Shown: positions 9,472-61,039 of the stretch, piece after piece
Numbering within the stretch: position 1 is the stretch's first letter
Layout of the letters: the number at the start of each line of letters is the position of its first letter
From: a virus
Taxonomy: Duplodnaviria > Heunggongvirae > Uroviricota > Caudoviricetes
DNA length: 64,000 bases
Virus record (IMG/VR): IMGVR_UViG_2974794945_000001
Span: 229,273 to 293,272 of that record
Strand: one strand, 5' to 3'
Translations under genes and position numbers: made by a program
Notes under the pieces: generated by a model
The model's input: the letters and a program-made list of their open reading frames with translations, nothing else
Database searches by the model: none
Told to the model about the DNA's origin: nothing

Positions 9472-10836
9472 ATGACTTTTCAAGATGTGTTGGGCTTTTA
9501 TCATGAAACGCTTAACTTGTTGTCTCATGGGGATTCAACCGTAAAAGGTTTCCTTGTGTTAGGTATCATGGGTGCACTGGGCTGGATTGGTCGTACATGG
9601 CCAGCTATGTTCATTGCATTCATTCGACGTAACATCATTGCGTCTATGACATTCACTCGTGCTGGGTCCTATTCAATGGACCTACAAAACTACGCAGAAT
9701 TCATGCGTTGGTTCAGTGAATCTAAATGGGCAAAGTATGATCGCAATCGTCGAGTAACATTTGACCGCGATAATCCTTATTTTGGACCAGGAGCAGGTTT
9801 TCACTGGTTCATCCATAATGGCCGCTACTTCTGGTTTCATGTGGTGCGTTTGAATTCCTCGGGTACAGATATCGAGAAAGAAGAATTCACCCTTTATACC
9901 TTCGGTCGTGATACTGCTCCGCTGGAAGCAATTGTAGAAGAGTTCCGTATTAAACCATGCAAAAGTTCTATACGTATCTTTGCACCTAATGATGGTGATT
10001 GGAAACGTCAAGGCAAATTGCGTTTGGATGCGGATGAAACTCTCATCATTGACCCGGACGTGGAACAAGAGTTCTTTGGTTCACTGGACTGGTACATTAA
10101 CAATGAGGCATGGTATCGTAAACGTGGTCGTGCTTACAAACACACGGTCATCCTGCACGGCCCACCTGGTACCGGTAAAACGTCTCTGATCAAGCGTGCA
10201 GCGCGTAAGTATAAACGTGACTTGCATTTCTTGAATTTGTCAACACACGGTCGTTCTCTGGCAGAACTGGTAGCTAAATTGCAACCGGGTGACATTCTCT
10301 GCATTGAAGACTTTGATGATGTGCGTTCTTTGCATCGTCGAGTAGAAACCAAAACGGTTGGTGTAACCGATGGTGATGATAGCAAAAGCCCTGGTGCTTT
10401 GCTGATGGATTGTGACATTGCACTGAGCACGTTCTTGAACGTATTGCAAGGTGTTGTGGAACTTGATGACATCATCATTATCATGACTACTAACCACCTG
10501 GAAAAGATTGACCCAGCTGTTTACCGTCGTTCTCGCGTAGACAAATTGATCGAAGTCCTGCCTCTTAAAGATGCAGAGATTAAACGCTACATCGATCAGA
10601 TGTATGATAATCCTACTTACGATCGTAATGTAATGTATCCAGATGTACCGGCTTCTACTTTGTCCGGTATATTCCAGGAACACCCAGACGATCATCTGGC
10701 TTTTATTAATAAGCTAGATTCCTTGGATGATGCGTACATCGCTAACAACTACGCATTACAACCAGAACCTAAACGGCCACCAGTGATTAAAAAGGAACCT
10801 GCTCCTGCATTGGAGGCTGTTGCTCTATCGGAATAG
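9472..10836 (+). CDS. membrane-anchored AAA+ ATPase, Bcs1-like
   Basis: N-terminal TM segment GFLVLGIMGALGWIG. Walker A HGPPGTGKTS. Bcs1-type Walker B ILCIEDFDD (E-D order). Sensor-1 IIMTTN. Arg finger region PAVYRRSRVD. Confidence 0.8.
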   Translation: MTFQDVLGFYHETLNLLSHGDSTVKGFLVLGIMGALGWIGRTWPAMFIAFIRRNIIASMTFTRAGSYSMDLQNYAEFMRWFSESKWAKYDRNRRVTFDRDNPYFGPGAGFHWFIHNGRYFWFHVVRLNSSGTDIEKEEFTLYTFGRDTAPLEAIVEEFRIKPCKSSIRIFAPNDGDWKRQGKLRLDADETLIIDPDVEQEFFGSLDWYINNEAWYRKRGRAYKHTVILHGPPGTGKTSLIKRAARKYKRDLHFLNLSTHGRSLAELVAKLQPGDILCIEDFDDVRSLHRRVETKTVGVTDGDDSKSPGALLMDCDIALSTFLNVLQGVVELDDIIIIMTTNHLEKIDPAVYRRSRVDKLIEVLPLKDAEIKRYIDQMYDNPTYDRNVMYPDVPASTLSGIFQEHPDDHLAFINKLDSLDDAYIANNYALQPEPKRPPVIKKEPAPALEAVALSE

Positions 10837-10841
10837 AATAC

Positions 10842-11183
10842 ATGGAACAGCTCAAACAAAAAGAATTCGACGTCTACCCAGATGAGATGACCTATCACAA
10901 AGATCGATTCCTGCACCCTAGCCGGAAATGTGAACTGGTCCGTTTTGTTGGTGCATTCCATTCGGATCATGTGCTTACAACCGAAGTCGAAGTTATTTGT
11001 CGTGGGAATGAACCGGGCAAGGTAGCACGGTTCTTGGTTCGTTACGGTGATCAAGAAGCTGATTTGATCATGGATTTGGAAACTTGCCGTTACTCTGCAT
11101 CTGTTAACATCAAAACTAAACTAGTCGATGTGATCCTTGTATTCCGCGCAGAATATCGGGAGGCACCAAAGGAAGCAGTATGA
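10842..11183 (+). CDS. hypothetical protein (113 aa)
   Basis: ORF. Confidence 0.5.
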   Translation: MEQLKQKEFDVYPDEMTYHKDRFLHPSRKCELVRFVGAFHSDHVLTTEVEVICRGNEPGKVARFLVRYGDQEADLIMDLETCRYSASVNIKTKLVDVILVFRAEYREAPKEAV

Positions 11184-12124
11184 TTAAAATCGAAGCTACA
11201 ATACCAACAGGTTATGGCAGTACATCAACTCGTTCGGAAGTAAAGATGGGTAAGATGCCTGGTGGTGAACTTCACCCCACAATCCCACCACACCTTGCCT
11301 GCTATCCCGATTACAAACTAATCGCAGATACACGTAGTGCTGAAGACATCATGGCGATCTTGTTGACTGTTGATGCCCTGCGGCGACAATGTGCTACCAA
11401 GAATCCCAGAGTCTCGTTGGAAATTGGTTACGTTCCTTACGCCCGGCAGGATCGGGTTTGTAATCCAGGGGAATCATTGAGCATTGCTGTTTTTGCTGGA
11501 TTGATTAACTCGTTGAATCTTGACGAAGTAATCATTGTTGATCCACACAGTGATGTTACACCTGCATTGATTAACAACGTTACAATTGTTACTCAGACCG
11601 ATGTGTTGAAACAAACACTGATCCGTGAGCATTGTGCTATTTATTATCGGGATGTAGCCATTGATCCAAAAGAATGGATTCTGGTTGCTCCTGATGCGGG
11701 TGCGGTTAAAAAGACCGAAGCTCTGGTAAAAGAGTTTGGTTTTAAAGGGATTGTTTATGCAAGTAAATTGCGTGAACTTTCTACGGGCAAAATTGTTAAG
11801 ACCTCGTTGGACCGTGTTGTCTACGATGGCACCACTCAACCACATGAATCATTGGCTGACCAGAAAGTGTTGATTGTTGATGACATTTGTGATGGTGGTC
11901 GTACATTCCTGGAATTGGCTAAAGTCATCCAGCCTTACGAACCCAAGCAACTGGATCTCTTTGTCACCCACGGGATTTTCTCTCAGGGTCAAAAAGAACT
12001 TTGTAAACATTTCAACCGCGTAATGTCGTCAAACACATATCGCATGGACGCCATCACTGATTTTGATAATCTTGAAATCAATGATCTCCTGGCACTTACC
12101 GAAATTCGTTTTCCCTACCTGTAA
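11180..12124 (+). CDS. ribose-phosphate pyrophosphokinase family protein (Prs-like; candidate ADP-ribose pyrophosphokinase, Adps)
   Basis: DALRRQCATK..IGYVPYARQDR matches Prs N-domain. PRPP-binding loop VLIVDDICDGGRT. 314 aa. Confidence 0.8.
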   Translation: MIKIEATIPTGYGSTSTRSEVKMGKMPGGELHPTIPPHLACYPDYKLIADTRSAEDIMAILLTVDALRRQCATKNPRVSLEIGYVPYARQDRVCNPGESLSIAVFAGLINSLNLDEVIIVDPHSDVTPALINNVTIVTQTDVLKQTLIREHCAIYYRDVAIDPKEWILVAPDAGAVKKTEALVKEFGFKGIVYASKLRELSTGKIVKTSLDRVVYDGTTQPHESLADQKVLIVDDICDGGRTFLELAKVIQPYEPKQLDLFVTHGIFSQGQKELCKHFNRVMSSNTYRMDAITDFDNLEINDLLALTEIRFPYL

Positions 12125-12136
12125 ATAGGAGCTTCA

Positions 12137-13966
12137 ATGAACGCACTCAATGCAGCAACAGCAACCGATTTTTACAAACCTGGTCACGGTCCATTGTACC
12201 CAGCGGGTACTACCCGTAAGTACTCGAACTTCACCCCACGTTCGGCAAAGAACTTTATTCGTTCTAAAAGCTGCTCATCGTTCTACGACAACAAAGTCGT
12301 AAACTTTGGTCTGTACGGCAGCTGGCAAGAACTGGTTGCTTTGTGGGATCGCACGTTCTTCCAGGTTTCCAAAGAGAAAGCCGTCAAAGCCATCAAGCGT
12401 CGTTTTGATAATGCTTGCGGCCCAGACGTTATCTCGGTTGCCCAAATTGCTGCGCTGCATGATGTAGGCTTCCTGCCTGTCACCGTGCTGTCCATCGAAG
12501 AAGGTAATCGTGTTAATGTTGGTATCCCACTGTGGGTTATCTATAACTCGGAAGAATACCCAGAGCACTACTGGCTGGTTAACTACCTGGAAACCGTAAC
12601 CAGTTCTTACAACTGGCAATCCATCACCAATGCCACCATTGCTTACGAATATCGTCGAGTAATGGAACACTGGGCTGAAAAGACTTGCGATAACAATCTG
12701 CACGTCAAGATCCAGGGTCATGATTTCTCGTTCCGTGGGATGCCTGGTCCAGAAGCTGCCGCTCGTTCAAACTCTGGTCACTTGGTTTCGTTCATTGGTA
12801 CTGACACTATCCCAGCAATCGACTACGTGGAAGAATATTACCACGCTGATAGCGATAAAGAAATTCTGGGTGTATCGGTTACTGCAACAGAGCACGCCGT
12901 GGCAACCGCCAACATCCTGACCATGTTCAAGCACCGCTTCGATGCTGTATGGGATGCTAACCACGGGGACATGGACATTGTTGGTCCATTGCTGGATAAA
13001 CTCAAGCTTGAGTGTGAGCGTGATTACATCCGTCAAATCATCACCGAAAAAGTAAACAAGGGCATTATCTCCCTGGTTTGCGATTCGTTCGATTTCTGGG
13101 GCGTCATTGCAGAAGTACTTCCATCACTGCGTACTGAAATTGAAGCTCGGATCAAGAATGAAATTGGTCTGGCTAAAGTTGTAGTGCGTCCTGATTCCGG
13201 TGATCCTGTTAAAGTCATCACTGGTTTTAAACTGGTTGAGTACAACACTGCAAAAGAATTCGATGATGCATTGTATAACCTCGGTTGGGAAGCAGTCAAC
13301 GGCGAAGCTGTCCGGGTAGGTGACAAGTATTACGAACTGCGTAACCACGATGCTCCAAATGCATTCCAGGCTCAGTCAACTTACGAAGACTTCCTGGGTC
13401 GTGAAATGTCTCGCGCAGAAGCTATCGGTGCCATTGATAGCCTCTACGAATCGTTTGGTGGACATGTAAACGGAAAGGGCTACAAAGTCCTGAATGAATA
13501 CATTGGCTTGATCTACGGTGATTCTATTACTGTAGAACGTGCTGAACAAATCTTTGAGCGCCTGGAAGAAAAAGGTTACGCTTCTTCTAACGTTGTTCTG
13601 GGTATTGGTTCGTTCACTTATCAATTCAACACTCGTGATACTTTTGGCATGGCTATGAAAGCCACCGCGTGTGAAGTTAACGCCGAACTGATTGAACTGT
13701 ACAAAGATCCAAAAACTGCTGCTTCCAAGAAATCTGCTAAAGGTTTCCTGCGCGTAGTGCGTGATGCTGCTGGTAACTATACACTGGAACAAGAAGTAGA
13801 AATGGACTGGAAAGATCTGTTCTACGGTTCGGGTGAATTGAAACCACTGTGGCACAACGGTAAGTTCCAGCGCGCTGAGTTCTTCCGTGATGCCCGTGAT
13901 CGTTTGGACCGTACATTTCTGCCTGCAGATACTGCTGCGGTAAATGATGGTTTTGAAGTAGCCTAA
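12137..13966 (+). CDS. nadV: nicotinamide phosphoribosyltransferase family protein (NadV/NAMPT-like; candidate Namat), with about 100-aa extra length
   Basis: NAMPT-family length and motifs (GTDTIPAIDY, GIGSFTYQ). Immediately downstream of the Prs-like gene. Confidence 0.75.
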   Translation: MNALNAATATDFYKPGHGPLYPAGTTRKYSNFTPRSAKNFIRSKSCSSFYDNKVVNFGLYGSWQELVALWDRTFFQVSKEKAVKAIKRRFDNACGPDVISVAQIAALHDVGFLPVTVLSIEEGNRVNVGIPLWVIYNSEEYPEHYWLVNYLETVTSSYNWQSITNATIAYEYRRVMEHWAEKTCDNNLHVKIQGHDFSFRGMPGPEAAARSNSGHLVSFIGTDTIPAIDYVEEYYHADSDKEILGVSVTATEHAVATANILTMFKHRFDAVWDANHGDMDIVGPLLDKLKLECERDYIRQIITEKVNKGIISLVCDSFDFWGVIAEVLPSLRTEIEARIKNEIGLAKVVVRPDSGDPVKVITGFKLVEYNTAKEFDDALYNLGWEAVNGEAVRVGDKYYELRNHDAPNAFQAQSTYEDFLGREMSRAEAIGAIDSLYESFGGHVNGKGYKVLNEYIGLIYGDSITVERAEQIFERLEEKGYASSNVVLGIGSFTYQFNTRDTFGMAMKATACEVNAELIELYKDPKTAASKKSAKGFLRVVRDAAGNYTLEQEVEMDWKDLFYGSGELKPLWHNGKFQRAEFFRDARDRLDRTFLPADTAAVNDGFEVA

Positions 13967-13972: not shown

Positions 13973-14008
13973 GGGTCCCTTCGGGGACCCTTCCTATTTT
14001 CTTTTTTG
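13973..14008 (+). terminator. rho-independent terminator
   Basis: gggtccc-ttcg-gggaccc followed by T-rich run. Confidence 0.65.
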
Positions 14009-14024
14009 TTGTGAGGTATAGTAA

Positions 14025-14609
14025 ATGAGTTGCTGCAATGATTGTAAAAAAGATGAAGGTGAACGAGTGGAGTTTGACGTAGGTATTAACTTCAATACCA
14101 ATAACTCGTATCATCCAGATTTGATTGGAAAAAAGATCAACTTCGTCAGCGGCTTTCTAGTAACAGCTGAAGGGGCAATGCCTAAGGGTGGGTTTCAAAT
14201 ACAGTTCCACAGTTATGGTGCCCGTAAACACATCAACATTTATCGGAACCGCTTACCGTTTGATGAACTGATGGCTACTATTCAGTTTAATGAAACCACA
14301 GGTCATTTTGTGGTACAGCAATTGACTCGGATAGAGTTTGAAAAAGTTCAATTGATTTTTACCAAAGAGCATGTTGAAGAAGTACAGTATCAAGAACTGG
14401 CTCTAGGTGTATACCGTGTACCTAACTTGGATGCAGGTATTCAACTTAGTGGACACTTGGATATCGATGATTACACTTTAACACAACTTCAAATTGGTCT
14501 GCGTAGAATTAATAGCTGGCCAGCGCTGGTATTGCACCATAGTCAAGAACTCTGTGTATTGTTTACTCCCGAACACCCTACTTGGAAAAATGACGCGTTG
14601 TGGCAATAG
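14025..14609 (+). CDS. hypothetical protein (194 aa), N-terminal CC..C cluster
   Basis: ORF. Confidence 0.55.
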   Translation: MSCCNDCKKDEGERVEFDVGINFNTNNSYHPDLIGKKINFVSGFLVTAEGAMPKGGFQIQFHSYGARKHINIYRNRLPFDELMATIQFNETTGHFVVQQLTRIEFEKVQLIFTKEHVEEVQYQELALGVYRVPNLDAGIQLSGHLDIDDYTLTQLQIGLRRINSWPALVLHHSQELCVLFTPEHPTWKNDALWQ

Positions 14610-14632
14610 TGTGTAATTAACGGGAGCATTCA

Positions 14633-16054
14633 ATGAAACAATATTTGGCAATGCAAAGGGACATTTTGACCCTGGGTACAGAAAAACAAGATCGCACTAA
14701 AACAGGTACGATCTCTTATCCGGGGATGATGGCACGTTACGACATTAGTGATAATCGTCTAGCTGTAACATCAACCAAAAAACTTCATCTGAAAACAGGA
14801 CAAGTTGAAGAAGACTGGATGTTCTCAGGTGATACACGACTAAAGTTTCTGAAAGATAACAACTGTAACATTTGGGATGAATGGGTATTACCTGGTACGG
14901 GTACCTATCGTCTACGTACATTAAAAGAAATGCGTCGTGTATATGTGCGTAACCATTTTGGCTGGGATGAACCAGGCTTCTTTAATGCACCTTTATCAGA
15001 AGAACAAAAGGGCTACTGCAATCTAGTTCATACCGAAATTGATTTTGACATTTACGAAGTGGTACCCACCACATTGTCTAAACCTCGGCACATGGTACTA
15101 GATAAATCAGATCCAAATAAAAATTGGCTTAACTGGATTAATCCTGACGATCCAATGTGGGTTAAGTTCTACACTGGTTTGAATATCTCCGATCAAGAAG
15201 TTGTTGATGGTGAATTGGGTAAAGTGTACGGTGCTATGTTTCGTAGCATTGAAGATACACGCATTGTAAAAGATGCGTCAGCCAAAGAAACATTGGCCAT
15301 GAAAAAACGTGGGTTTACCTTTGAAGGTGAACTGGCAGGCAAGCGTTCTGTGTTTACTCGGAACATTGACCAGCTGGCAAATCTACTGCATGATCTTGAA
15401 CATAACCCAGATTCACGTCGTTTGATTCTTTGCCCATGGAATCCAGCGTATGTGGATGAGCAAGCCTTACCACCTTGCCATTCATTTATTCAATTCTGGA
15501 CACGTGAAATTCCTGCGGAAGAACGTTACAACATTTACGTGAAACGTTTTGAGCGGGAAAAAGCTGAACTGTTTGACGATATTGCTCGCCGGGGGCGGGC
15601 AGATATCTACACAGTCCATGTACCGTATCCACTAAGTTCTTTCATGCATGTTGAAAACGATGCATTGGTTCGTGATGAATATAAACTACATGCCTATTTG
15701 GATGAGCTTAATGTTCCTCGTCGTGGTTTGACCTGTATCTTCTACATGCGCTCCAACGATAACTTTTTGGGTGCTCCGTATAACCTGACGTTTTATTCGT
15801 CGTTGACGCACAAACTTGCTCACCAGTTTAATATGTATGGTGAAGAGCTAGTGCACATGGTCGGTGATGCACACATTTACCTGAACCATTTGGATCAAGT
15901 AAAAGAACAGCAACTGCGTACTCCGGATGAAGATATGCCACGACTAAAGATCAAATGTCCTGTAGGTACTTCCATTCTGGATATGACCTTTAATGATCTT
16001 GAAGTTGTTGGCTACAATCCACAACCGGCTATTCCTGCGCCCGTAGCAGTTTAA
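14633..16054 (+). CDS. thyA: thymidylate synthase (ThyA family) with two large insertions (473 aa)
   Basis: N-terminus MKQYLAMQRDILTLGTEKQDRTKTGT and NIWDEW match ThyA. Active-site region DSRRLILCPWNP...LPPCHSFIQFW. TCIFYMRSNDNFLGAPYNLTFYSSL matches ThyA SCQLYQRSxDxFLGxPFNIASYALL. GDAHIY-NH and C-terminal GYNPQPAIPAPVAV. Confidence 0.85.
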   Translation: MKQYLAMQRDILTLGTEKQDRTKTGTISYPGMMARYDISDNRLAVTSTKKLHLKTGQVEEDWMFSGDTRLKFLKDNNCNIWDEWVLPGTGTYRLRTLKEMRRVYVRNHFGWDEPGFFNAPLSEEQKGYCNLVHTEIDFDIYEVVPTTLSKPRHMVLDKSDPNKNWLNWINPDDPMWVKFYTGLNISDQEVVDGELGKVYGAMFRSIEDTRIVKDASAKETLAMKKRGFTFEGELAGKRSVFTRNIDQLANLLHDLEHNPDSRRLILCPWNPAYVDEQALPPCHSFIQFWTREIPAEERYNIYVKRFEREKAELFDDIARRGRADIYTVHVPYPLSSFMHVENDALVRDEYKLHAYLDELNVPRRGLTCIFYMRSNDNFLGAPYNLTFYSSLTHKLAHQFNMYGEELVHMVGDAHIYLNHLDQVKEQQLRTPDEDMPRLKIKCPVGTSILDMTFNDLEVVGYNPQPAIPAPVAV

Positions 16055-16061
16055 CGTCATA

Positions 16062-16090
16062 AAGCCTCCCTGCTAGGGAGGCTTTTATAT
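16062..16090 (+). terminator. terminator hairpin agcctccctgctagggaggct + ttttatatt
   Basis: 8-bp stem; weak T run. Confidence 0.45.
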
Positions 16091-16099
16091 TGGAAGATT

Positions 16100-16303
16100 A
16101 TGATCACATTAGTTGTTGGATGCATTTTACTAGCAATGGGTATCATTGGTGGTGGATTCCTATTATGGGCGTGCATTACCAATTACATCGAGAAAGATGA
16201 TCAGCTCAATTATTGTTTCGGTGCACTGATTAGTTACCTAGTGCTACTTATGGTAATGGTTGCTATTGCCATGGCTGAAAAACAATACCTGATGAACAAC
16301 TGA
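16100..16303 (+). CDS. small hydrophobic membrane protein (67 aa, two TM)
   Basis: ORF dominated by hydrophobic stretches. Confidence 0.5.
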   Translation: MITLVVGCILLAMGIIGGGFLLWACITNYIEKDDQLNYCFGALISYLVLLMVMVAIAMAEKQYLMNN

Positions 16304-16310
16304 GGTTAAC

Positions 16311-16616
16311 ATGCAAAGTAATCTAATTGTAGCAACTGTCTACCCAATCACTGGTTGTGATAGTGTTGGGTATGTTCGTGAAATCAAACAAGACGAAAAT
16401 GGTAAGTATTCTTTTGTCCGTACAAACTCCGTTGAACGTGCACAGTTGTTCGGCGCGGAAGTTAATGCGGTAATTGATTGGATGCGTAAGGAATGCCATT
16501 ACGATGGCCTGGACACAATCTATTCATTTAGCCCATTTCCAGTTAACAACCTAACCCGTATGGTGGAAGTTAGTACTCTTTCAGAACAAGCCGAGGCAAA
16601 TGATGTTCAGGCGTGA
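16311..16616 (+). CDS. hypothetical protein (101 aa)
   Basis: ORF. Confidence 0.5.
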   Translation: MQSNLIVATVYPITGCDSVGYVREIKQDENGKYSFVRTNSVERAQLFGAEVNAVIDWMRKECHYDGLDTIYSFSPFPVNNLTRMVEVSTLSEQAEANDVQA

Positions 16617-17855: not shown

Positions 17856-19244
17856 TTGATTGCGGTGAGATTGCCGCTTTCAATATCCTACGAGGTCGTT
17901 ACAATGTCTGAAGCAGAAGTTGTACAAAAAGAAATCAAAGCAGGTTTTGGTGTAGTAGAAAAAGATCGTAAACTTGCGCGCATCGTTATCATTGACGATG
18001 TTGTTCCACACCCTAATGCTGAACGCTTGGAACTTGCTGTAATTGGTGGTTGGCAACTCTGTGTCAAATTGGGCGAATACAAGAAAGGTGATCGTGCCGT
18101 TTATTGCGAGATCGATTCCCTGCTACCATTGTCCAACGTAGAACTCTTTGGTTTCCTGGAAGAACGCCGTTCTGATAACCGTCGGGTTGATGGTGTTAAC
18201 TTTCACCGGCTGAAGACTATCAAACTGCGTAAAGAAATTTCACAAGGTCTGTTGGTTCCAGTGCCAGCTAAGTTTAAAGATTCTCCGGTTGATACTAACC
18301 TGACTCTAGAACTGGGTATCTTGAAATACGAACCACGTGCACCAATGGAGCCATCGAACAAAGAAGCTCGCGGTTCTGACTGGTACTCTCGTTTGATTCG
18401 TAAGATCATTGGTAACCTGGATGGTTCACTGATTCCTTGGCCAGCTCAACTGACTAAGTCTGATCAGGACCGAGTACAGAACAAAACTGTTGCCTTCACC
18501 CTGGCTAAAGAAGCCGGTGAAGTATTTGAAGTTACCTACAAGCTTGATGGTAGCTCGATGACTGTGTTCTGCATCAACGATAAAGGTGTCCGTACTGGTG
18601 TGTGTTCTCGTAATTACGAGCTAGGTCTGGGTGAAGGTAATTGGTCGTTCTCTGAACAGCTGCGTCATTGGGTTGGTGCTTTCCTCATCCGTAACCGTAA
18701 AGTAGTTAGCTTGAAGAAAGTTCCTTTGGAAGAAGGTGGTTTCAAACGTAAACTACATTGGACTGGTATTCACATTCCACAGTGGTTGAAAGGTAGCATT
18801 GCTACTGAGAACAACTTCACTCGTTATGTGAAAGAACATGAAGTTACCAAGGCGCTGCGTGAATACCAAGCGCGTACTGGTGAATTCATTACTGTTCAAG
18901 GTGAATTGATTGGTCCGGACATTCAGTCTAACTTTGAAGGTGTAGACAAACACGAATACCACGTGTTCTCTGTGTACCGTAATGGTAACGAAGAAGTCTT
19001 GCCTGAAGAAGCTGAAAAGATTGTTAAAGAACTGGGTCTTACTTACGTTCCAATCTTTGATCGTGCGTTTGTAATCAAACCAGAACAAGGTGTTAAAGAA
19101 ATCCTGGAATTGGCTGAAGGTCAACGTGCTTTCAATCCAAAGAAAGGTACTTACCGTGAAGGTCTGGTATTCAAGTCAAAATCTCGACTGATGTCCTTCA
19201 AAGCCATCAGCAATAGCTACCTTATCAAAAAAGCAGACGAATAA
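17856..19244 (+). CDS. ATP-dependent RNA ligase (covalent nucleotidyltransferase; Rnl-type with N-terminal OB-like domain)
   Basis: Motif I TYKLDGSSMTV (KxDG), motif IV REGLVFK (EGxV), motif V KAISNSYLIKK. N-terminal roughly 110 aa looks like an OB/beta-barrel module as in Rnl5/NgrRnl-type ligases. Confidence 0.6.
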   Translation: MIAVRLPLSISYEVVTMSEAEVVQKEIKAGFGVVEKDRKLARIVIIDDVVPHPNAERLELAVIGGWQLCVKLGEYKKGDRAVYCEIDSLLPLSNVELFGFLEERRSDNRRVDGVNFHRLKTIKLRKEISQGLLVPVPAKFKDSPVDTNLTLELGILKYEPRAPMEPSNKEARGSDWYSRLIRKIIGNLDGSLIPWPAQLTKSDQDRVQNKTVAFTLAKEAGEVFEVTYKLDGSSMTVFCINDKGVRTGVCSRNYELGLGEGNWSFSEQLRHWVGAFLIRNRKVVSLKKVPLEEGGFKRKLHWTGIHIPQWLKGSIATENNFTRYVKEHEVTKALREYQARTGEFITVQGELIGPDIQSNFEGVDKHEYHVFSVYRNGNEEVLPEEAEKIVKELGLTYVPIFDRAFVIKPEQGVKEILELAEGQRAFNPKKGTYREGLVFKSKSRLMSFKAISNSYLIKKADE

Positions 19245-54336: not shown

Positions 54337-55604
54337 GCAGTTACCTGTTCATTGGATTGATATTCACGAGAAGCACGAAGACGAACCTTGGCTTCAGTTG
54401 TAGTTTCAGTGACCCACACAGTCATGCAACCATTTTGATATTGGGCATTGACTGTAAATTTCAGTTCTGGAAATTTATCTACTAGTTGTTGTGTAATGTG
54501 TTCTGATACAACTGCATCGGCATTACCCAGGATAGCTTCCGTACCTAGGAAAACATCTTCCAGCGCTTTGGTTGCTACTGTAGTGATTTCAATAATCTTA
54601 CTGACATTACGTGAACGTTTCTTTTGTTCTTCCGTACGTACAGGGAAAAGATCATTGACCACATTGTCATTTGGCACTGGTGCACCTATAGTCATTTCGG
54701 TACGAGTAAAACCTAGATCATGAACAACTTCTTCATCACTGAGAGTATCCTCTACTACAATGGTGAATGTCCAATCCCGACCAATAGCAGCGGTTACGTT
54801 TACTTGGAAGTTTTCATTCTCGTAACGCTCAACCAAACGTTCTTTAATACGGATGTTAGCTGCGCAGATCATTTCATGGGTGTTCAGTTTAGAATCACCC
54901 AGTAGTTCATTAAATACTTCAGCAGCAATCTTCTTTACTTGTTTTGCAAAAACACTTTCTGTTTGGGACATTGTATCACCTTCAAAACGGGTAAGTGGTG
55001 CTTGTACCACTTCTACATAACAATGGTCAGGTGAGTTATAAATTGCACCCTGTACATTAAACATCAATGGCGCACCCAGTTCGTAGTCGGAATAATACAC
55101 CGAAACCGTAGTGTGATTTTCAGGGTAGACCATTTTTACTTGATCACGAATATCTTCTTCTACAAACAGACGAAGTTCTTCTGCCGTAGAGATAGCGTTG
55201 TTGCTAACATCAGCAACAACTTCTTTGGTAACGTTAATCAAGAACTCTTTGAAATCGGTAAACAACGGAATGAGTTCTTCCACTGGTAAAGTTTGTACCG
55301 ATTTGACAATCTGGAATTGATCAATATCACGATTAAGCTTTTCACAAACTTTAACCATGTACTGTTCTACATCAGAACCCTTAACCAAAGTAACGGTAAC
55401 GGTATGGTAATAGGTACCTAGCTCGTGGGTATCGGGAGTCCATTTGTAATCCGTTGCTAACTTGGCTTCTAACTTAGTAGCAAGTTCCAGGTTAATGCGA
55501 CCCACAATGTAAACATACTTCTGCGCATGGGTCAGATAAACTTGGCTGGTCACATCCTGCAAGTGCTTTAATACGGTTTCTTCTACTTGTTTGATTGTGT
55601 CCAT
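54333..55604 (-). CDS. hypothetical protein (423 aa)
   Basis: Long ORF; ATGA overlap with the downstream gene. Confidence 0.6.
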   Translation of the reverse strand: MDTIKQVEETVLKHLQDVTSQVYLTHAQKYVYIVGRINLELATKLEAKLATDYKWTPDTHELGTYYHTVTVTLVKGSDVEQYMVKVCEKLNRDIDQFQIVKSVQTLPVEELIPLFTDFKEFLINVTKEVVADVSNNAISTAEELRLFVEEDIRDQVKMVYPENHTTVSVYYSDYELGAPLMFNVQGAIYNSPDHCYVEVVQAPLTRFEGDTMSQTESVFAKQVKKIAAEVFNELLGDSKLNTHEMICAANIRIKERLVERYENENFQVNVTAAIGRDWTFTIVVEDTLSDEEVVHDLGFTRTEMTIGAPVPNDNVVNDLFPVRTEEQKKRSRNVSKIIEITTVATKALEDVFLGTEAILGNADAVVSEHITQQLVDKFPELKFTVNAQYQNGCMTVWVTETTTEAKVRLRASREYQSNEQVTA

Positions 55605-55605
55605 A

Positions 55606-56868
55606 TTAACCTTTCACACAGAGGAATTGTTTTAGGGTGTGCACGATTTCAACCAGTTCAGATTGTGCCGCCATTACGTCATCAATGTTCTTGTATGCCT
55701 TAGGGGTTTCATCCAGAACACTTGCATCTTTACGACATTCTACACCAGCTGTATCACGGATATGATCTTCCAGTGTAAAAGTCTTTTCTGCTTGTGTACG
55801 GGACATTACTCGACCTGCACCATGTGAACATGAACAGAACGATTCTCGGTTTCCTTTACCGCGGACAATGAATGACTTAGCACCCATAGAACCTGGAATG
55901 ATCCCCAGTGTTCCTTCACTTGCGTTGACTGCACCTTTACGTGTTACAATAACATTCTCACCAAAGTGGCGTTCTTGTGATACGTAGTTGTGGTGGCAGT
56001 TAATTGCCTCTAGATCCGAATCAATTGGCAGGCCCAGTGTTTTGTGGATGGCATCCAAAGCAGCGTGCATCATCACGGAACGATTTAGTGCAGCAAAGCG
56101 TTGTGCCCAAGATACGGCTTCAACGTAGTCATCGTAGTAACGTGAACCTTCCGGCAGATAAGAAAGATCTTTATCCGGAAGGTGGATAAAGAAACGCCCC
56201 ATTTCTTCTTTGGCTTTGCTAATGAAGTAAGTACCAATAGCGTTACCAATACCACGCGAACCCGAGTGTAGCATAATCCATACACGATCTGTTTCATCAA
56301 GACACAGTTCAATGAAGTGGTTACCCGTACCCAGTGTCCCTACATGGTTCCAAGCACGCTCGGATGCTTTCTTCAATTTAGGGTGGCGTTCAACAATGCT
56401 ATCCAATTGCTTCCGTAGTTTTGCAGCTTCTTCACGAACAGCTACGGTTGGGTGATTGAAGATATTAACGGTACCAAATGCACCACGATCATTCTTACCA
56501 CCATTGTCAGTACGACCATGTGGCACACATGCTTCAATGGCTGCACGAAGATGTCCCAGAGAGTCTGGAAGCGCGTCTGAAGAGAATCTCAGACGTTGTG
56601 CTGCCATTCCGCATCCAATATCAACACCTACCGCAGAAGGGATGATAGCGCCTTTGGTAGCAATAACAGAACCAATGGTTGCACCTTTACCCACATGAAC
56701 GTCTGGCATCACTGCTACGTGGGAATAAATGAATGGCAATGCTGCAATGTTTTTCAATTGCTTTACTGCATCGGGTTCTACTGGTACACCTACGGTCCAG
56801 CCTTTAATTGGCTTAGCTCCGTCAATAGGCTCACCACCTAGAATTTCAAATGTTTTACTCTGTTTCAT
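55606..56868 (-). CDS. rtcB: RtcB family RNA 3'-phosphate/2',3'-cyclic phosphate ligase
   Basis: RtcB motifs: LGTGNHFIEL, metal/GTP-binding residues, CSCSHGAGRVMSR; 420 aa. Confidence 0.85.
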   Translation of the reverse strand: MKQSKTFEILGGEPIDGAKPIKGWTVGVPVEPDAVKQLKNIAALPFIYSHVAVMPDVHVGKGATIGSVIATKGAIIPSAVGVDIGCGMAAQRLRFSSDALPDSLGHLRAAIEACVPHGRTDNGGKNDRGAFGTVNIFNHPTVAVREEAAKLRKQLDSIVERHPKLKKASERAWNHVGTLGTGNHFIELCLDETDRVWIMLHSGSRGIGNAIGTYFISKAKEEMGRFFIHLPDKDLSYLPEGSRYYDDYVEAVSWAQRFAALNRSVMMHAALDAIHKTLGLPIDSDLEAINCHHNYVSQERHFGENVIVTRKGAVNASEGTLGIIPGSMGAKSFIVRGKGNRESFCSCSHGAGRVMSRTQAEKTFTLEDHIRDTAGVECRKDASVLDETPKAYKNIDDVMAAQSELVEIVHTLKQFLCVKG

Positions 56869-56896
56869 ATAAATCTCTCACGGATGGAATTAGAGT

Positions 56897-57562
56897 TTAT
56901 TGATTAACGAATGTTTCACAATGCCCTTTTGGATCAAGCACAATATTACCTGTCCAAGTAAAACCTTTTTGTTCTTCTGTTTCAACGTTTGCTACTGCGC
57001 TGATTACAATTTGCCTTACTTCGCCATTTTTAATACTAGCAAAGTCTTTAGGAAACAAATGATCCCGAACTGCATTCAATACAACGTCGCCTTGAGTGGT
57101 TGTTGTAGGGACAGTAACAAATGCACTTAGTGCACGATCAACTTCGTTGTCTAGCAGACGCCACTGGACGTACGGGTGCAAGTGTCTGATGCTATCCCCG
57201 TCCATGTAATCCAAATGGGCTGAATGTTTATCGATCAAACGGTCTTGAAAAAGATCTGCTGTCTTGGTATACAGTTCAGGGTGGTCACGGAACAGCGAGT
57301 TTGTACAGTAAGTATTTTCTACAGTAGAAACGGGCTCAAGTTTTTCTAATGTTTCCCGGTAACACTCTTCCAACAGCATGAAGTAATTCTTACGCACAGG
57401 TCCCCAAATGTCCTCACGAATGATTTCGCGCAGGGCTGCAAATTCAGTAAGTTCCTTAAGGTTAACGCTACGGTTTGCACAGTGTAGTTCGTGCAAGCGT
57501 TCTTTAAATCCTTCTTGTAGCAAAGGAGCGAAGGGCTCCATAAATTTATCAAGTGCTGACAT
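56897..57562 (-). CDS. hypothetical protein (221 aa)
   Basis: ORF immediately upstream of rtcB. Confidence 0.55.
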   Translation of the reverse strand: MSALDKFMEPFAPLLQEGFKERLHELHCANRSVNLKELTEFAALREIIREDIWGPVRKNYFMLLEECYRETLEKLEPVSTVENTYCTNSLFRDHPELYTKTADLFQDRLIDKHSAHLDYMDGDSIRHLHPYVQWRLLDNEVDRALSAFVTVPTTTTQGDVVLNAVRDHLFPKDFASIKNGEVRQIVISAVANVETEEQKGFTWTGNIVLDPKGHCETFVNQ

Positions 57563-57949
57563 TGTAGATACCTATTGGGTTTGGTTATATAAACTGAAGC
57601 GGTAAGTATTATTAAACGGCATAAGAGCAGACCCGAAGGTCCACTCCTATTAAGGACTGTATAGTTATTAGCTGGCCAGCTTACCCCCGTAGTGTTCAGA
57701 GGTTAATAGCTATTACAGCACCGCGAGTCTTTTACATATCCAATGGTCCTACCACATGCAGCAAGAGGTGGCTTGGACGGACCTTGGATAAAAAGAAACT
57801 TACGATTCGGATCAGACGTAGTTGTCACACTAAGTAAGTCCATTCGGGTCGAAGCTTGACTGGCTTCGTTATGAGGTCTTCCCTCTATTTAAGAGCCGAA
57901 ACCGCGCAACCGGCAATGTTCTTCACATTATTACGTCTGTAGTATTTCT
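57563..57949 (-). other. ORF-free 0.39-kb spacer, possibly structured RNA or leader
   Basis: No ORF of 60 aa or more on either strand, between the radical SAM gene and the 221-aa gene; several local hairpins. Confidence 0.3.
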
Positions 57950-58831
57950 TTATTTTAAGAACGTACCACATGATGCTTTTACGTCTGTACCTACGCGAGG
58001 AATAACTTTGACTCGTGCCTTAGGCAAGCGTCTACGAATATAACCTGCCAGGTAATTAATCTGTCCTTCTAAGCTTTCTTGTGAGCTATGACCATCGGGT
58101 GGATTGTACCGAACAATGTTCCAATTGACATCCAGCTTATACGTATCAAGTTGATCACAGATCTTTGCTACGTCTGCAAGATCATCATTTTCATTACGAA
58201 TGAATGCATAATGAATCTTTGGTTTTTTACCGGTGGCTTGTTGCCAGGACATTAGCTTAGCAAACGCCGCACTCGGATTAAGTGCTTTAGGTATCCAGCG
58301 TTTACGAAACTCGGGTTTTAAGGAATACACCGAGTAATAAATTTCTGGATAAAGATCTGGATGTGTGAAGATTTCAGTTAATCCACGGTTCATCATTTCC
58401 TGTGGAAAAATGGTAGACACCAAAAACTTATATTCCAAACCGTAACGTGAAGCACGTTCCGCTAAACCATCCAAAATGATGTCGGCATTGTCTAGGAAGA
58501 TCTTGTTGGCTAAAGGTTCACCACGAGCCATGAAATTGAAATGTACTTTACGAGCCATTGTTTTAGTGGCGTAGTATTGTAGTACACGTTCAGCTTGATC
58601 CCAGTATTCTTCAATGGTTACATCACGTAGTTTGTTTTGTCCCGTAGCTGTTAAATGGCACATACGGCAGGCTTGATTACAGCCTGTCTGAGAAGACAAA
58701 TAAACAATGAAGTAATCATCGCTCCGACGTACATACCGTGCCTCTAACATCCCTGGGTGATCTTCAAAGCGGTGTTCAAAGTTAACGGACTGATCAAGTT
58801 GTGATATGTGTTGTTTAAAGATAAGTTCCAT
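57950..58831 (-). CDS. radical SAM enzyme, RlmN/Cfr-like (short form, 293 aa)
   Basis: YLSSQTGCNQACRMCHL matches RlmN/Cfr SSQVGCxxxCxFC (CX3CX2C). C-terminal conserved Cys in IPRVGTDVKASCGTF matches RlmN ..DIDAACGQL. Confidence 0.6.
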   Translation of the reverse strand: MELIFKQHISQLDQSVNFEHRFEDHPGMLEARYVRRSDDYFIVYLSSQTGCNQACRMCHLTATGQNKLRDVTIEEYWDQAERVLQYYATKTMARKVHFNFMARGEPLANKIFLDNADIILDGLAERASRYGLEYKFLVSTIFPQEMMNRGLTEIFTHPDLYPEIYYSVYSLKPEFRKRWIPKALNPSAAFAKLMSWQQATGKKPKIHYAFIRNENDDLADVAKICDQLDTYKLDVNWNIVRYNPPDGHSSQESLEGQINYLAGYIRRRLPKARVKVIPRVGTDVKASCGTFLK

Positions 58832-59088
58832 TAATCCACCTGTATTTCAATGAAGACTTCGGTACGACCAACCCATATTGAACCACGGGTGGCATATTGC
58901 GCATTGTAAGTCGCTTTGTTATCTACCCAAACTTGGTATACATCCTGACCACAATCTCGAATAAAATTCGAAACTTTATTAATAGCATAACGAACTTGCT
59001 TATCATTGAACCAGGGAAATGATAAGCGAATCTGTTTTTCCATGTTATCGTGGTACGACATTGTTATACTCCGCAATTTGGAAATCAC
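58831..59088 (-). CDS. hypothetical protein (85 aa)
   Basis: ORF. Confidence 0.5.
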   Translation of the reverse strand: MISKLRSITMSYHDNMEKQIRLSFPWFNDKQVRYAINKVSNFIRDCGQDVYQVWVDNKATYNAQYATRGSIWVGRTEVFIEIQVD

Positions 59089-59380
59089 CTAGGTTAACAA
59101 CAAACCCTCCAATTGTACTAATCACAACCGGTCTGTGTTTACGATAAAGCCCGTGTTGCTCACGCCAGTAATCTTGTAGATGTGCATCTACAAAAGCTTC
59201 TGTATGTCCTGGGGTAAATATTTCACCCCATTGCGGTTCTAACGCCTTCTCTATTTGGTATTGGTAACTCTTAATAACGTGGTGTGGTGGATCAGTCTCT
59301 GGACCAAAATAGGTCTCACGTTTATGTGCAATCTTTGCGTGGATCATGTCTTTAAATGCAGCATTAGTTCTTTCATTCAT
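59045..59380 (-). CDS. hypothetical protein (111 aa)
   Basis: ORF. Confidence 0.5.
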   Translation of the reverse strand: MNERTNAAFKDMIHAKIAHKRETYFGPETDPPHHVIKSYQYQIEKALEPQWGEIFTPGHTEAFVDAHLQDYWREQHGLYRKHRPVVISTIGGFVVNLGDFQIAEYNNVVPR

Positions 59381-59402
59381 TGTAAATTCCTATTTTTAGT
59401 AT

Positions 59403-59915: not shown

Positions 59916-59984
59916 GGGTATTCCAATAGTAGAGGTACTGCAATCGTAAAGACCATTCTTTACTTATACATTGTCGCACTGAGT

Positions 59985-60019
59985 ATTTTATGGCATAAAG
60001 CTTTCCCCTAGGGGAAAGC
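59985..60019 (-). terminator. palindromic hairpin gctttcccc-ta-ggggaaagc + A/T tail (terminator after tRNA-Leu)
   Basis: Perfect 9-bp stem; on minus it is followed by tttatgcc. Confidence 0.5.
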
Positions 60020-60031
60020 ACTATACTTGTT

Positions 60032-60117: not shown

Positions 60118-60154
60118 TTGTATATTATTACACTTGTGGTATTCTTTTACAGTA

Positions 60155-60877: not shown

Positions 60878-60946
60878 TTTAAGTCCTGTCTACTATTACA
60901 CTATACAATAGGACATAAAACCAACCCTAAGGTTGGCTATGTTTTT

Positions 60947-61032: not shown

Positions 61033-61039
61033 GTATACT

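What the first reader, a model, noticed from the sequence alone, without database searches (positions are those of the whole stretch)
14633..16054. Thymidylate synthase family enzyme of 473 aa with two large in-frame insertions
N- and C-termini and the catalytic Cys region (LPPCHSFIQFW) align convincingly with ThyA, for example MKQYL..DRTGTGT, NIWDEW, GDAHIY-NH and the GY-P-P-I-APVA tail. The protein is about 200 aa longer than normal. One insertion of about 130 aa follows NIWDEW. A second of about 70 aa lies between the catalytic Cys and the LSCQLYQRS-equivalent. The inserts lack intein hallmarks. Phage ThyA homologs with altered architecture include dUMP/dCMP hydroxymethylases that feed DNA hypermodification pathways. 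This could therefore mark non-canonical pyrimidine chemistry or a regulatory/protein-interaction add-on.
Basis: partly seen in the sequence, partly recalled or inferred. Interest (0 to 1): 0.6.

Follow-up and report, generated by a model that had tools for sequence, protein, structure and literature searches.

The report
Oversized thymidylate synthase in jumbo phage
This is the thymidylate synthase gene of the jumbo Pseudomonas phage Psa21: a normal-looking dTMP-making enzyme that carries about 210 extra residues in three surface insertions shared by phiKZ-like phages, with no sign of altered pyrimidine chemistry.

Summary
The ORF at 14633-16054 (+) is real. It is PSA21_306 of Pseudomonas phage Psa21, a phiKZ-like, nucleus-forming jumbo phage, and GenBank already annotates it as thymidylate synthase (TS).

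There are three insertions, not two:
- ins1a: residues 86-192.
- ins1b: residues 208-242.
- ins2: residues 291-365.

Three-insert ThyAs form one clade that includes phiKZ gp235 and PhiPA3 gp274. A 345-359 aa phage class carries ins1b plus an insert at the ins2 site, homologous only at its start. ins1a diverges beyond recognition between subclades.

The phage also encodes DHFR and ribonucleotide reductase, and has only one TS-family gene. The hydroxymethylase/hypermodification reading is therefore not supported.

The inserts are most likely surface add-ons with a structural or interaction role, which is untested. Interest is modest.

The parts
14622..14626 (+). Shine-Dalgarno-like GGGAG, 6 nt upstream of the ATG
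   Evidence: Read directly from the sequence.
14633..14887 (+). TS core block 1 (aa 1-85). Contains Arg21, Glu59 (Ec E58) and the folate-site motif I80-W81-D-E-W84.
   Evidence: Aligns to E. coli ThyA 1-84. These residues are invariant in homologues.
14888..15208 (+). ins1a (aa 86-192, 107 aa). A fast-evolving alpha/beta insertion at the same loop as the 50-aa small-domain insert of Lactobacillus casei-type TS.
   Evidence: - Delimited by MAFFT alignment.
- pLDDT 92-96, with strands and helices.
- Identity to homologues falls to about 8% while the core stays at about 50%.
- Only the first 27 residues are detectably related between the Psa21 and phiKZ subclades.
- No Pfam or PDB sequence match.
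15209..15253 (+). Conserved core segment GELGKVYGAMFRSIE (aa 193-207), containing catalytic Tyr199 (Ec Y94). It separates ins1a from ins1b.
   Evidence: Fifteen residues are present in every homologue, including E. coli. L195, Y199, G200 and R204 are invariant.
15254..15358 (+). ins1b (aa 208-242, 35 aa). A strand-helix-strand-strand unit with a conserved RGF motif, at the site of eukaryotic TS insert 1 and of the Burkholderia-type insert.
   Evidence: - Delimited and modelled.
- Homologous across the Psa21, phiKZ and 345-359 aa classes (hhalign 97.5-97.9%).
- 3V8H and NCBIfam NF010393 align contiguously across this site, but ins1b alone gives no PDB sequence hit.
15359..15502 (+). TS core block 2 (aa 243-290). 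Contains Arg262/Arg263 (Ec R126/R127) and the catalytic Cys282-His283 (codon for Cys282 at 15476-15478).
   Evidence: Aligns to E. coli ThyA 107-154. These residues are invariant.
15503..15727 (+). ins2 (aa 291-365, 75 aa). Inserted in the beta-hairpin turn Ec 155-158. It consists of a 26-residue helix, a loop, a small hairpin and a helix.
   Evidence: - Delimited and modelled.
- Homologous over 68 columns between the Psa21 and phiKZ subclades (hhalign 97.8%).
- Only the first 26 columns are related to the 345-359 aa class (82.7%).
- No Pfam or PDB sequence match.
15728..16054 (+). TS core block 3 (aa 366-473) plus the stop codon. Contains Met372 (Ec Q165), Arg373, Ser374, Asn375 (Ec C168), Asp376, Asn384 (Ec N177), His414, Tyr416 and the C-terminal APVAV.
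   Evidence: Aligns to E. coli ThyA 159-264. The paired 165/168 swap is.

Best explanation
PSA21_306 is a catalytically ordinary ThyA-type thymidylate synthase. It should convert dUMP plus 5,10-methylene-tetrahydrofolate into dTMP plus dihydrofolate.

Inferred pathway:
- It most likely acts as the usual homodimer. The pair of arginines that reach into the partner's active site is conserved.
- The phage's own dihydrofolate reductase (PSA21_4) would recycle the folate.
- The phage ribonucleotide reductase (PSA21_427/428) would feed the deoxynucleotide pool.
- Together these raise the dTTP supply for a 305-kb, 43% G+C genome. The host genome is far more GC-rich (my own knowledge).

About 210 extra residues sit at three loops. 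Two of them (the ins1a and ins1b sites) are known length-variable loops of the TS fold.
- ins1a and ins1b enlarge the small domain that borders the folate entrance.
- ins2 grows out of the hairpin at the far end of the central sheet.

The inserts are folded protein. They are specific to a clade of phage TSs and evolve much faster than the core. They are therefore best read as surface accessory modules with a structural, stability or protein-contact role, not as a change of chemistry.

Shown here: family membership, catalytic residues, insert boundaries, their distribution and their divergence. Inferred: enzyme activity, the dimer, and the role of the inserts.
For: TS identity:
- Pfam PF00303 at 244.9 bits against a cutoff of 24.3.
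- TIGR03284 equivalog at 226 bits against 108.

Active site:
- R21, E58, W80, W83, Y94, R126, R127, C146, H147, R166, S167, D169, N177, H207 and Y209 (E. coli numbering) are invariant in 43 long and 11 mid-length homologues.
- The C-terminal APVAV tail is kept.
- The one deviation, Q165M, is always paired with C168N. Of 114 sequences, 18 are M+N, 1 is A+Q, and 95 are Q plus a non-amide residue. This points to a compensated relocation of the amide.

Pathway context:
- DHFR is present (Pfam DHFR_1, 2e-33).
- Both RNR subunits are annotated.
- tblastn finds a single TS-family place in the Psa21 record.

The inserts are protein:
- AF2 gives pLDDT 94.1 and pTM 0.90, with regular secondary structure throughout.
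- Rfam finds no intron in the Psa21 gene, yet finds a group I intron in the thyA of a relative (69 bits).
- G+C of the inserts is 40-44%, against 42% for the gene and the window.

Distribution:
- 116 phage records contain a place covering at least 80% of the query. All 60 listed records are Pseudomonas phiKZ-like phages.
- On the core alone, the three-insert TSs are monophyletic in 197 of 200 bootstraps.

The inserts are orphans:
- 7 hits in 1.84 billion representatives, all long ThyAs.

Fast evolution: ins1a identity is about 8% where the core is about 50%.

Literature:
- TS-GFP is excluded from the phage nucleus in PhiPA3 infection (PMC9067925).
- Knockdown of phiKZ gp235 gives only a weak defect (PMC12571901).
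- phiKZ virion DNA is cut by standard restriction enzymes (bioRxiv 10.1101/370791).
Against: - No activity, product or oligomeric state was measured.
The position of the inserts relative to the active site and the dimer interface is inferred from where they enter the known TS fold, not observed.
- The retention of about 210 well-folded residues across a whole clade argues for some function, which this account leaves vague.
- Q165M sits next to the specificity-determining Asn177, and its effect is untested.
- The restriction-digest evidence is for phiKZ, not Psa21. It was designed against hydroxymethyl-cytosine, and 5-hydroxymethyl-uracil would not block most of those enzymes.
- The Psa21 genome was not scanned systematically for hmdUMP kinase or thymidine-hypermodifying enzymes. 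Only product names were read, for about 72% of the record.
Confidence: 0.8

Rival explanations
1. The inserts are a dedicated protein-protein interaction platform. They might tether TS to phage DHFR, RNR or other enzymes in a T4-like dNTP-synthesising complex, or to the outside of the phage-nucleus shell. The hypervariable ins1a would be tracking a co-evolving partner or a host factor.
For: - The inserts are well folded and retained throughout a clade, yet have no catalytic-looking conserved motif.
- ins1a diverges far faster than the core, as interface or arms-race surfaces often do.
- TS works in the cytoplasm while replication is inside the phage nucleus.
- From memory, not checked here: surface differences in T4 TS were proposed to mediate contacts in the dNTP synthetase complex.
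Against: - No partner is identified.
- The gene neighbourhood is not conserved between Psa21 and phiKZ.
- The architecture is not universal among large phages. The Erwinia phage RisingSun TS is 286 aa, and a Salmonella jumbo-phage TS is 345 aa without ins1a.
- Fast divergence is equally what relaxed constraint would give.
Confidence: 0.2
2. It is a dUMP (or dCMP) hydroxymethylase that feeds 5-hmdU or hypermodified thymidine into phage DNA.
For: - There is an unusual substitution, Q165M, next to the base-specificity residue Asn177.
- Most Psa21 genes are unannotated, so downstream enzymes could be hidden.
Against: - All residues needed for hydride transfer and dUMP specificity are invariant, and the C-terminal tail is present.
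- Similarity to true TSs is much higher than to hydroxymethylases.
- Q165M is compensated by C168N.
- A phage DHFR is present.
- This is the only TS-family gene in the genome, so the phage would otherwise make no dTMP of its own.
- phiKZ DNA is digested normally.
- Psa21 was sequenced by a standard Illumina library without comment.
Confidence: 0.04
3. The Q165M/C168N pair in the Psa21 subclade relaxes pyrimidine discrimination, for example allowing some dCMP methylation, while the rest of the enzyme stays a TS.
For: - The Met replaces the Gln that, from my recollection of the L. casei TS literature (Gln217-Asn229), helps orient the specificity Asn.
- The change is fixed in 15 of the 25 sequences of the Psa21-like subclade.
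Against: - The strict pairing with an Asn or Gln at position 168, including an independent A165+Q168 case and M+N pairs outside the subclade, looks like preservation of the hydrogen-bond network, not its loss.
- Asn177 itself is invariant.
Confidence: 0.05
4. The extra segments are not part of the mature protein. They would be introns, inteins, an assembly or annotation artefact, or a second enzymatic domain fused in.
For: - thyA is a classic home for group I introns, and several phiKZ relatives do carry one with a homing endonuclease.
Against: - Rfam finds no intron in Psa21 thyA at E <= 1, yet it detects the control intron at 69 bits.
- The frame stays open, and the same architecture is found in more than 100 phage genomes.
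- pLDDT is above 90 in the inserts.
- There is no Hint/intein Pfam hit and no splice-junction residues.
- The GNAT matches cover only about 50 residues at 4-5 A rmsd, and the inserts have no acetyl-CoA motif in the right topology.
- ins1a is not even conserved between subclades, which argues against a second catalytic domain.
Confidence: 0.01

Closest known systems
E. coli ThyA (264 aa; e.g. PDB 2TSC, 1AOB)
   Same: All three core blocks align end to end. The core is 44-49% identical to canonical 264-290-aa bacterial ThyAs. The catalytic residues and the C-terminal tail are the same.
   Different: Psa21 has an extra 107 + 35 + 75 residues at Ec positions ~84/88, ~101/106 and 155/158. Q165 and C168 are replaced by M and N.
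phiKZ gp235, PhiPA3 gp274 and 201phi2-1 thymidylate synthases (457-488 aa)
   Same: They have the same three insertion sites. They form one clade with Psa21 on the core alone (197/200). ins1b and ins2 are homologous. The 201phi2-1 model matches beyond the core (TMq 0.73 against about 0.51 for core-only TSs).
   Different: Overall identity is only 33-38%. Beyond its first ~27 residues, ins1a is not detectably related and is 111-131 aa long in that subclade. They keep Q165.
A 345-359 aa phage TS class (e.g. Salmonella phage MET_P1_082_240, and a phage-like region in Halomonas sp. BMC6)
   Same: They carry ins1b (hhalign 97.5-97.9%) and an insert at the ins2 site. The Halomonas copy sits among RNR, MazG-like, DHFR and phage genes.
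   Different: They have no ins1a. Their ins2 is shorter (49-63 aa), and only its first ~26 columns are related.
Lactobacillus casei-type (Gram-positive) ThyA with the 50-residue small-domain insert (e.g. PDB 1LCA; also 3UWL, 4DQ1)
   Same: The insertion lies at the same loop, between IWDEW and GDLGxVYG. This is my own knowledge of the L. casei sequence, and the position matches.
   Different: ins1a is twice as long. No sequence similarity to that insert was detected. These TSs have no ins1b or ins2.
Burkholderia thailandensis ThyA (PDB 3V8H) and the NCBIfam NF010393 323-aa TS type
   Different: Psa21 scores 134 bits against a family cutoff of 576, so it is not a member. ins1b alone has no significant sequence match to 3V8H. 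This type has no ins1a and no full ins2.
T4 gp42 dCMP hydroxymethylase and MilA CMP hydroxymethylase
   Different: Identity is only 20-24%. Psa21 keeps Asn, not Asp, at the specificity position and keeps the C-terminal tail. It also co-occurs with DHFR.

Membership tests
ThyA thymidylate synthase (EC 2.1.1.45; Pfam PF00303, TIGR03284) | Profile score above the curated cutoff | tested here: met
   PF00303 at 244.9 bits against 24.3. TIGR03284 equivalog at 226.2 bits against 108.35. The narrower NF0024xx sub-models are below their cutoffs.
ThyA thymidylate synthase (EC 2.1.1.45; Pfam PF00303, TIGR03284) | Catalytic nucleophile Cys in the P-C-H motif, plus general acid/base residues E58, H147 and Y94 | tested here: met
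   Cys282-His283, Glu59 and Tyr199 are present. They are invariant in 54 insert-bearing homologues.
ThyA thymidylate synthase (EC 2.1.1.45; Pfam PF00303, TIGR03284) | Four-arginine dUMP phosphate site (R21, R166, and R126'/R127' from the partner subunit) | tested here: met
   R21, R373 and R262/R263 are present and invariant. Dimerisation itself was not tested.
ThyA thymidylate synthase (EC 2.1.1.45; Pfam PF00303, TIGR03284) | Asn (not Asp) at the pyrimidine-specificity position Ec 177 | tested here: met
   Asn384. It is Asn in 43/43 long and 11/11 mid-length homologues.
ThyA thymidylate synthase (EC 2.1.1.45; Pfam PF00303, TIGR03284) | Folate-site residues (I79, W80, W83, D169, L172, G173) and a full-length C-terminal tail ending in a hydrophobic residue | tested here: met
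   All are conserved. The C-terminus APVAV aligns to E. coli APVAI.
ThyA thymidylate synthase (EC 2.1.1.45; Pfam PF00303, TIGR03284) | TS fold | tested here: met
ThyA thymidylate synthase (EC 2.1.1.45; Pfam PF00303, TIGR03284) | Reductive methylation of dUMP with dihydrofolate as co-product | not testable with these tools
   This needs an enzyme assay. It is supported indirectly by the co-encoded DHFR.
Pyrimidine nucleotide hydroxymethylases (T4 gp42, SPO1 gp29 type, MilA) | Closer in sequence and structure to hydroxymethylases than to TSs | tested here: not met
Pyrimidine nucleotide hydroxymethylases (T4 gp42, SPO1 gp29 type, MilA) | Active-site changes: Asp at the Ec 177 position for cytosine substrates, and loss of the C-terminal closing tail | tested here: not met
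   Asn384 and the APVAV tail are present. What distinguishes dUMP hydroxymethylases specifically is not well defined, to my knowledge.
Pyrimidine nucleotide hydroxymethylases (T4 gp42, SPO1 gp29 type, MilA) | Genomic partners: an hm-dNMP kinase and downstream modifying enzymes, with no need for DHFR | tested here: inconclusive
   DHFR is present. No such partners appear among the product names read for about 223 of 305 kb. Most genes are 'hypothetical', and no genome-wide HMM scan was possible.
Pyrimidine nucleotide hydroxymethylases (T4 gp42, SPO1 gp29 type, MilA) | Modified pyrimidine in virion DNA | not testable with these tools
   There is only indirect evidence. phiKZ gDNA is cut by HindIII, EcoRI, KpnI and NcoI, and Psa21 was sequenced by a standard Illumina library.
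Inteins | Hint domain, an N-terminal Cys/Ser, and a C-terminal His-Asn followed by Cys/Ser/Thr | tested here: not met
   No Pfam hit for any insert at E <= 10. The junctions are W|VLPG...VVD|G, D|TRIV...FT|R and W|TREI...RRG|L.
Group I intron in thyA (T4 td type) | Match to the Rfam RF00028 covariance model, and interruption of the reading frame | tested here: not met
   No match in window 14000-16600 at E <= 1. The same search finds RF00028 at 69.4 bits in the thyA of phage KEN51. The Psa21 frame is uninterrupted.
NCBIfam NF010393 (323-aa Burkholderia-type ThyA) | Score above the family cutoff | tested here: not met
   134.3 bits against a cutoff of 576. It shares only the position of ins1b.

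The most novel reading that the evidence does not exclude
The three inserts together form a clade-specific, rapidly evolving surface on a cytoplasmic metabolic enzyme of nucleus-forming phages. That surface would have a function of its own. It could dock TS into a phage dNTP factory or onto the phage-nucleus shell, so that thymidylate is channelled to the enclosed replication machinery. It could also act as a decoy or shield against a host factor that targets TS. In either case the hypervariability of ins1a would record a molecular arms race.
Probability: 0.15. Interest if true: 0.6.

Novelty: new variant of a known kind. Interest (0 to 1): 0.3.

Why it matters
Thymidylate synthase is one of the most conserved enzymes known, so a monofunctional ThyA nearly twice the normal size is a structural curiosity.

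Here the extra mass is folded and has no recognisable donor. It is confined to a clade of phage enzymes and evolves several times faster than the catalytic core.

If the inserts mediate contacts, they would give a handle on how nucleus-forming jumbo phages organise nucleotide supply outside their protein-bounded replication compartment.

If they are neutral decorations, they show how tolerant three loops of the TS fold are (two of them already known to vary in length). That is useful for engineering.

In practical terms, the result removes Psa21 and phiKZ-type phages from the list of candidates for thymidine hypermodification on the basis of this gene.

Tried and rejected
- **Introns.** An Rfam E-value scan of 14000-16600 found nothing relevant. 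The positive control in KEN51 thyA worked.
- **Inteins or known domains in the inserts.** Pfam at E <= 10 found nothing. PDB phmmer found nothing significant.
- **A free-standing donor for ins1a/ins1b.** An exhaustive phmmer of residues 86-245 against 1.84 billion representatives returned only 7 long ThyAs.
- **A known fold for the inserts.**
- **A cellular origin for the mid-length class.** The Halomonas 'chromosomal' copy sits in a phage-like gene cluster.
- **Foreign composition of the inserts.** There is none.
- **Monophyly by length class.** This failed because oversized ThyAs are heterogeneous. With architecture-defined sets the phiKZ-type clade is well supported, but its link to the mid-length class is not (52/200).
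- **BLAST with ins2 alone against phages.** It finds only Psa21 and D6. The wider homology of ins2 needed profile comparison.
- **Literature.** Searches for a description of phiKZ gp235 architecture found none.
  - Coordinates of the models could not be read.
  - A dimer could not be modelled.
  - As a result, the distances from the inserts to the active site and the dimer interface were not measured.
  - The stretch 150-231 kb of the Psa21 record was not read.
Full report
**What is there**

The window is part of Pseudomonas phage Psa21 (MK552327, 305,260 bp, genus Tepukevirus). Psa21 is a phiKZ-like jumbo phage of P. syringae pv. actinidiae, and the match is 100% identical over the whole query.

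The ORF at 14633-16054 (+) is PSA21_306, which GenBank already annotates as 'thymidylate synthase'. It runs from ATG to stop and encodes 473 aa. A GGGAG motif lies 6 nt upstream of the ATG. A strong terminator-like hairpin at 13973-13990 follows the preceding NAMPT-like gene. thyA may therefore be transcribed together with the 194-aa ORF just upstream of it.

The phage also encodes a PhuZ tubulin. Its genome announcement notes a homologue of the nuclear-shell protein gp105 as well. So Psa21 belongs to the nucleus-forming group.

**Checking the observation**

The protein is unambiguously a ThyA:
- Pfam PF00303, E = 1.1e-72.
- PHROG 160, E = 2.4e-80.
- TIGR03284 equivalog, 226 bits against a cutoff of 108.
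- E. coli ThyA crystal-structure sequences, E = 2e-51.

The PDB alignment falls into three blocks: query 1-85 = Ec 1-84, query 243-290 = Ec 107-154, and query 366-473 = Ec 159-264.

A multiple alignment with 67 homologues shows that the first gap is really two insertions. They flank a conserved 15-residue core segment, GELGKVYGAMFRSIE, which carries catalytic Tyr94 (E. coli numbering). That gives three sites:
- ins1a: residues 86-192 (107 aa).
- ins1b: residues 208-242 (35 aa).
- ins2: residues 291-365 (75 aa).

**Are the inserts really protein?**

Yes. Five lines of evidence agree:
- The frame is open, and 116 phage records contain a place covering at least 80% of the query. The listed records are all phiKZ-like Pseudomonas phages, including phiKZ gp235 (488 aa) and PhiPA3 gp274.
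- An Rfam E-value scan finds no intron in or around the gene. The same method finds a group I intron at 69.4 bits in the thyA of the phiKZ relative KEN51, where the gene is split around a homing endonuclease.
- None of the inserts matches any Pfam model at E <= 10, and none has intein-type junction residues.
- AlphaFold2 with a 66-sequence alignment gives mean pLDDT 94.1 and pTM 0.90. Confidence is as high inside the inserts as in the core.
- The G+C and GC3 of the inserts equal those of the core and the window, so nothing points to a recent foreign acquisition.

In the model, ins1a is a mixed alpha/beta unit with strands 91-94, 129-134, 138-143, 152-157 and 188-192, and helices 97-107, 123-126, 165-169 and 175-182. 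ins1b is strand-helix-strand-strand. ins2 is a 26-residue helix (295-320), a loop, a short hairpin (338-347) and a helix (349-358).

**Is the chemistry altered?**

I find no sign of it.
- In E. coli numbering, R21, K48, E58, I79, W80, W83, Y94, R126, R127, L143, C146, H147, R166, S167, D169, G173, N177, H207 and Y209 are conserved in Psa21. Almost all are invariant in 43 three-insert and 11 two-insert homologues.
- Asn177 is the residue that selects uracil over cytosine, and it is invariant.
- The C-terminal tail (APVAV against E. coli APVAI) is kept. By established TS enzymology this tail closes the site for hydride transfer, and T4 dCMP hydroxymethylase lacks it.

The one deviation is Gln165 to Met in Psa21 and 14 relatives. 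It is strictly paired with Cys/Ala168 to Asn:
- All 19 sequences without Gln165 have Asn or Gln at position 168 (18 M+N and one A+Q, in at least four separate lineages).
- None of the 95 sequences with Gln165 does.

I read this as relocation of the amide that, as I recall from the L. casei literature, hydrogen-bonds the specificity Asn. That recollection was not checked here.

Structure and context point the same way:
- Psa21 encodes a verified DHFR (PSA21_4; Pfam DHFR_1, 2e-33). DHFR is needed only if the TS reaction oxidises the folate.
- Both RNR subunits are annotated.
- tblastn finds a single TS-family place in the genome.
- For phiKZ, which has the same architecture, virion DNA was cut by every restriction enzyme with a site in the genome. 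This is weak evidence, because the panel was aimed at hydroxymethyl-cytosine.

**Where do the inserts come from, and how do they evolve?**

Two of the three sites (those of ins1a and ins1b) are known length-variable loops of the TS fold:
- ins1a lies where L. casei-type TSs carry their 50-residue small-domain insert (my own knowledge of that sequence).
- ins1b lies where eukaryotic TSs have a 12-residue insert, and where the Burkholderia-type enzyme has a longer one.
- ins2 sits in the hairpin turn at Ec 155-158. I know of no described insert at that site, although other oversized phage ThyAs in this data set also carry extra residues there.

Evidence on the Burkholderia-type insert at the ins1b site:
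- 3V8H and NCBIfam NF010393 align contiguously through this site.
- ins1b on its own has no significant PDB sequence hit.

Evidence on homology between classes:
- Profile-profile comparison shows ins1b is homologous across the Psa21 subclade, the phiKZ subclade and a 345-359 aa class (97.5-97.9%).
- ins2 is homologous over its whole length between the two three-insert subclades (97.8%). Only its first 26 columns are related to the mid-length class.
- ins1a is related only over its first 27 residues (37% probability).

Evidence on rates and descent:
- Against Psa21, core identity runs from 86% down to 46%. ins1a identity falls from 56% to about 8% over the same set.
- On core columns alone, the Psa21-like and phiKZ-like subclades are each monophyletic (199/200 and 200/200). 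Together they form a clade in 197/200 bootstraps. Their link to the mid-length class is unresolved (52/200).
- The mid-length class is also viral. Its one 'bacterial' member (Halomonas sp. BMC6) sits among RNR, MazG-like, DHFR and phage-specific genes.

No donor was found for the inserts:
- An exhaustive HMMER scan of 1.84 billion representative proteins with residues 86-245 returned seven hits, all long ThyAs of the Psa21 subclade.

pTM drops from 0.90 in the full protein to 0.65 for the isolated fragment, and confidence is low in the excised core helix. This suggests that ins1a and ins1b pack onto the TS core rather than forming one autonomous domain. That is an inference.

Oversized ThyAs are common in large phages generally. 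BFVD lists phage TS models of 366-610 aa. Several metagenomic ThyAs of 390-565 aa carry other orphan insertions with no additional Pfam domain.

**How it most likely works**

The best-supported account is a conventional homodimeric TS. It makes dTMP and dihydrofolate in the cytoplasm of the infected cell, coupled to the phage DHFR and RNR.
- A TS-GFP fusion is excluded from the phage nucleus in PhiPA3 infection (PMC9067925). The passages I read do not say whether that TS was phage- or host-encoded.
- Antisense knockdown of phiKZ gp235 reduced plaques and ChmA only weakly, and the gene is listed outside the core genome (PMC12571901). This fits an auxiliary enzyme that tops up dTTP for an AT-richer genome (43.1% G+C).

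The inserts enlarge the small domain beside the folate entrance and add a helical arm at the distal end of the central sheet. They are retained across the clade, well folded, lack conserved polar motifs and evolve fast. This fits accessory surface modules with a structural or contact role. It does not establish what they contact.

**What remains open**

- I could not read model coordinates or model the dimer. The geometry of the inserts relative to the active site and the dimer interface is not established.
- No systematic search of the Psa21 proteome for thymidine-hypermodification enzymes was possible. I read product names for about 72% of the record and saw none, but most genes are annotated 'hypothetical'.
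- I found no paper that describes the insert architecture of phiKZ-type TSs. However, the library excludes most subscription journals.

**Verdict**

This is a real, reproducible architectural variant of a very well known enzyme, already annotated as such. The exciting reading, non-canonical pyrimidine chemistry, is not supported. The function of the inserts is an open but modest question.

Noticed in passing
L006:1562-1799 (Pseudomonas phage vB_Pae10145-KEN51, PP456879); also PA02, SL2, OMKO1, T2P, U5 and others: In several phiKZ relatives thyA is split into two annotated CDSs around a homing-endonuclease gene. Rfam finds a group I intron (RF00028, 69.4 bits) starting where exon 1 ends, just upstream of the conserved YQRS coding region. 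Psa21 lacks it.
   Followed up: partly
window 11180-13966 (+): Upstream of thyA, beyond the intervening 194-aa ORF, lie a PRPP-synthetase-like gene and a 609-aa NAMPT/NAPRTase-family gene, i.e. NAD-salvage-type genes. The NAMPT-like protein is also oversized: 349 residues align to 221 positions of PF04095.
   Followed up: no
window 9472-10836 (+): The gene annotated 'cell division protein FtsH' matches BCS1_N plus an AAA domain and no FtsH protease domain. The annotation looks imprecise.
   Followed up: no
window 13973-13990 (+): A strong intrinsic-terminator-like hairpin (7 pairs, 6 of them G-C, followed by a T-run) lies directly after the NAMPT-like gene. It suggests a transcript boundary before the 194-aa ORF and thyA.
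   Followed up: no
window 15728-15760 (aa 366-376); homologues P0043, P0059, P0061, P0064: There is strict covariation of TS positions 165 and 168 (E. coli numbering). The pairs seen are Q plus a non-amide residue (95 sequences), M+N (18) and A+Q (1), and the non-Q pairs recur in separate lineages. This may be a general compensatory pair in the TS active-site shell.
   Followed up: partly
L004:8001-9074 (Halomonas sp. BMC6 assembly GCA_964204995.1, contig of 3.9 Mb): A 357-aa two-insert ThyA lies in a bacterial assembly, surrounded by SbcC-like, RNR, MazG-like, DHFR, RNase H and Phage_phiTE_072 genes. It is probably a large prophage or phage-derived island.
   Followed up: partly
proteins P0051 (565 aa), P0106 (470 aa), P0044 (390 aa), P0063 (455 aa): These are other metagenomic ThyAs with large orphan insertions at different sites. 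One has about 200 extra residues inside the GxLGxVYG segment, and another has about 190 after profile position 60. Pfam sees only the TS domain in all of them.
   Followed up: partly
window approx. 55600-64000 (- strand; record 284878-293272): The annotation shows an RtcB ligase, a radical-SAM RlmN-like methyltransferase and a tRNA cluster interspersed with HNH endonucleases. With the RNA ligase at window 17856-19244, these suggest an RNA-repair toolkit.
   Followed up: no
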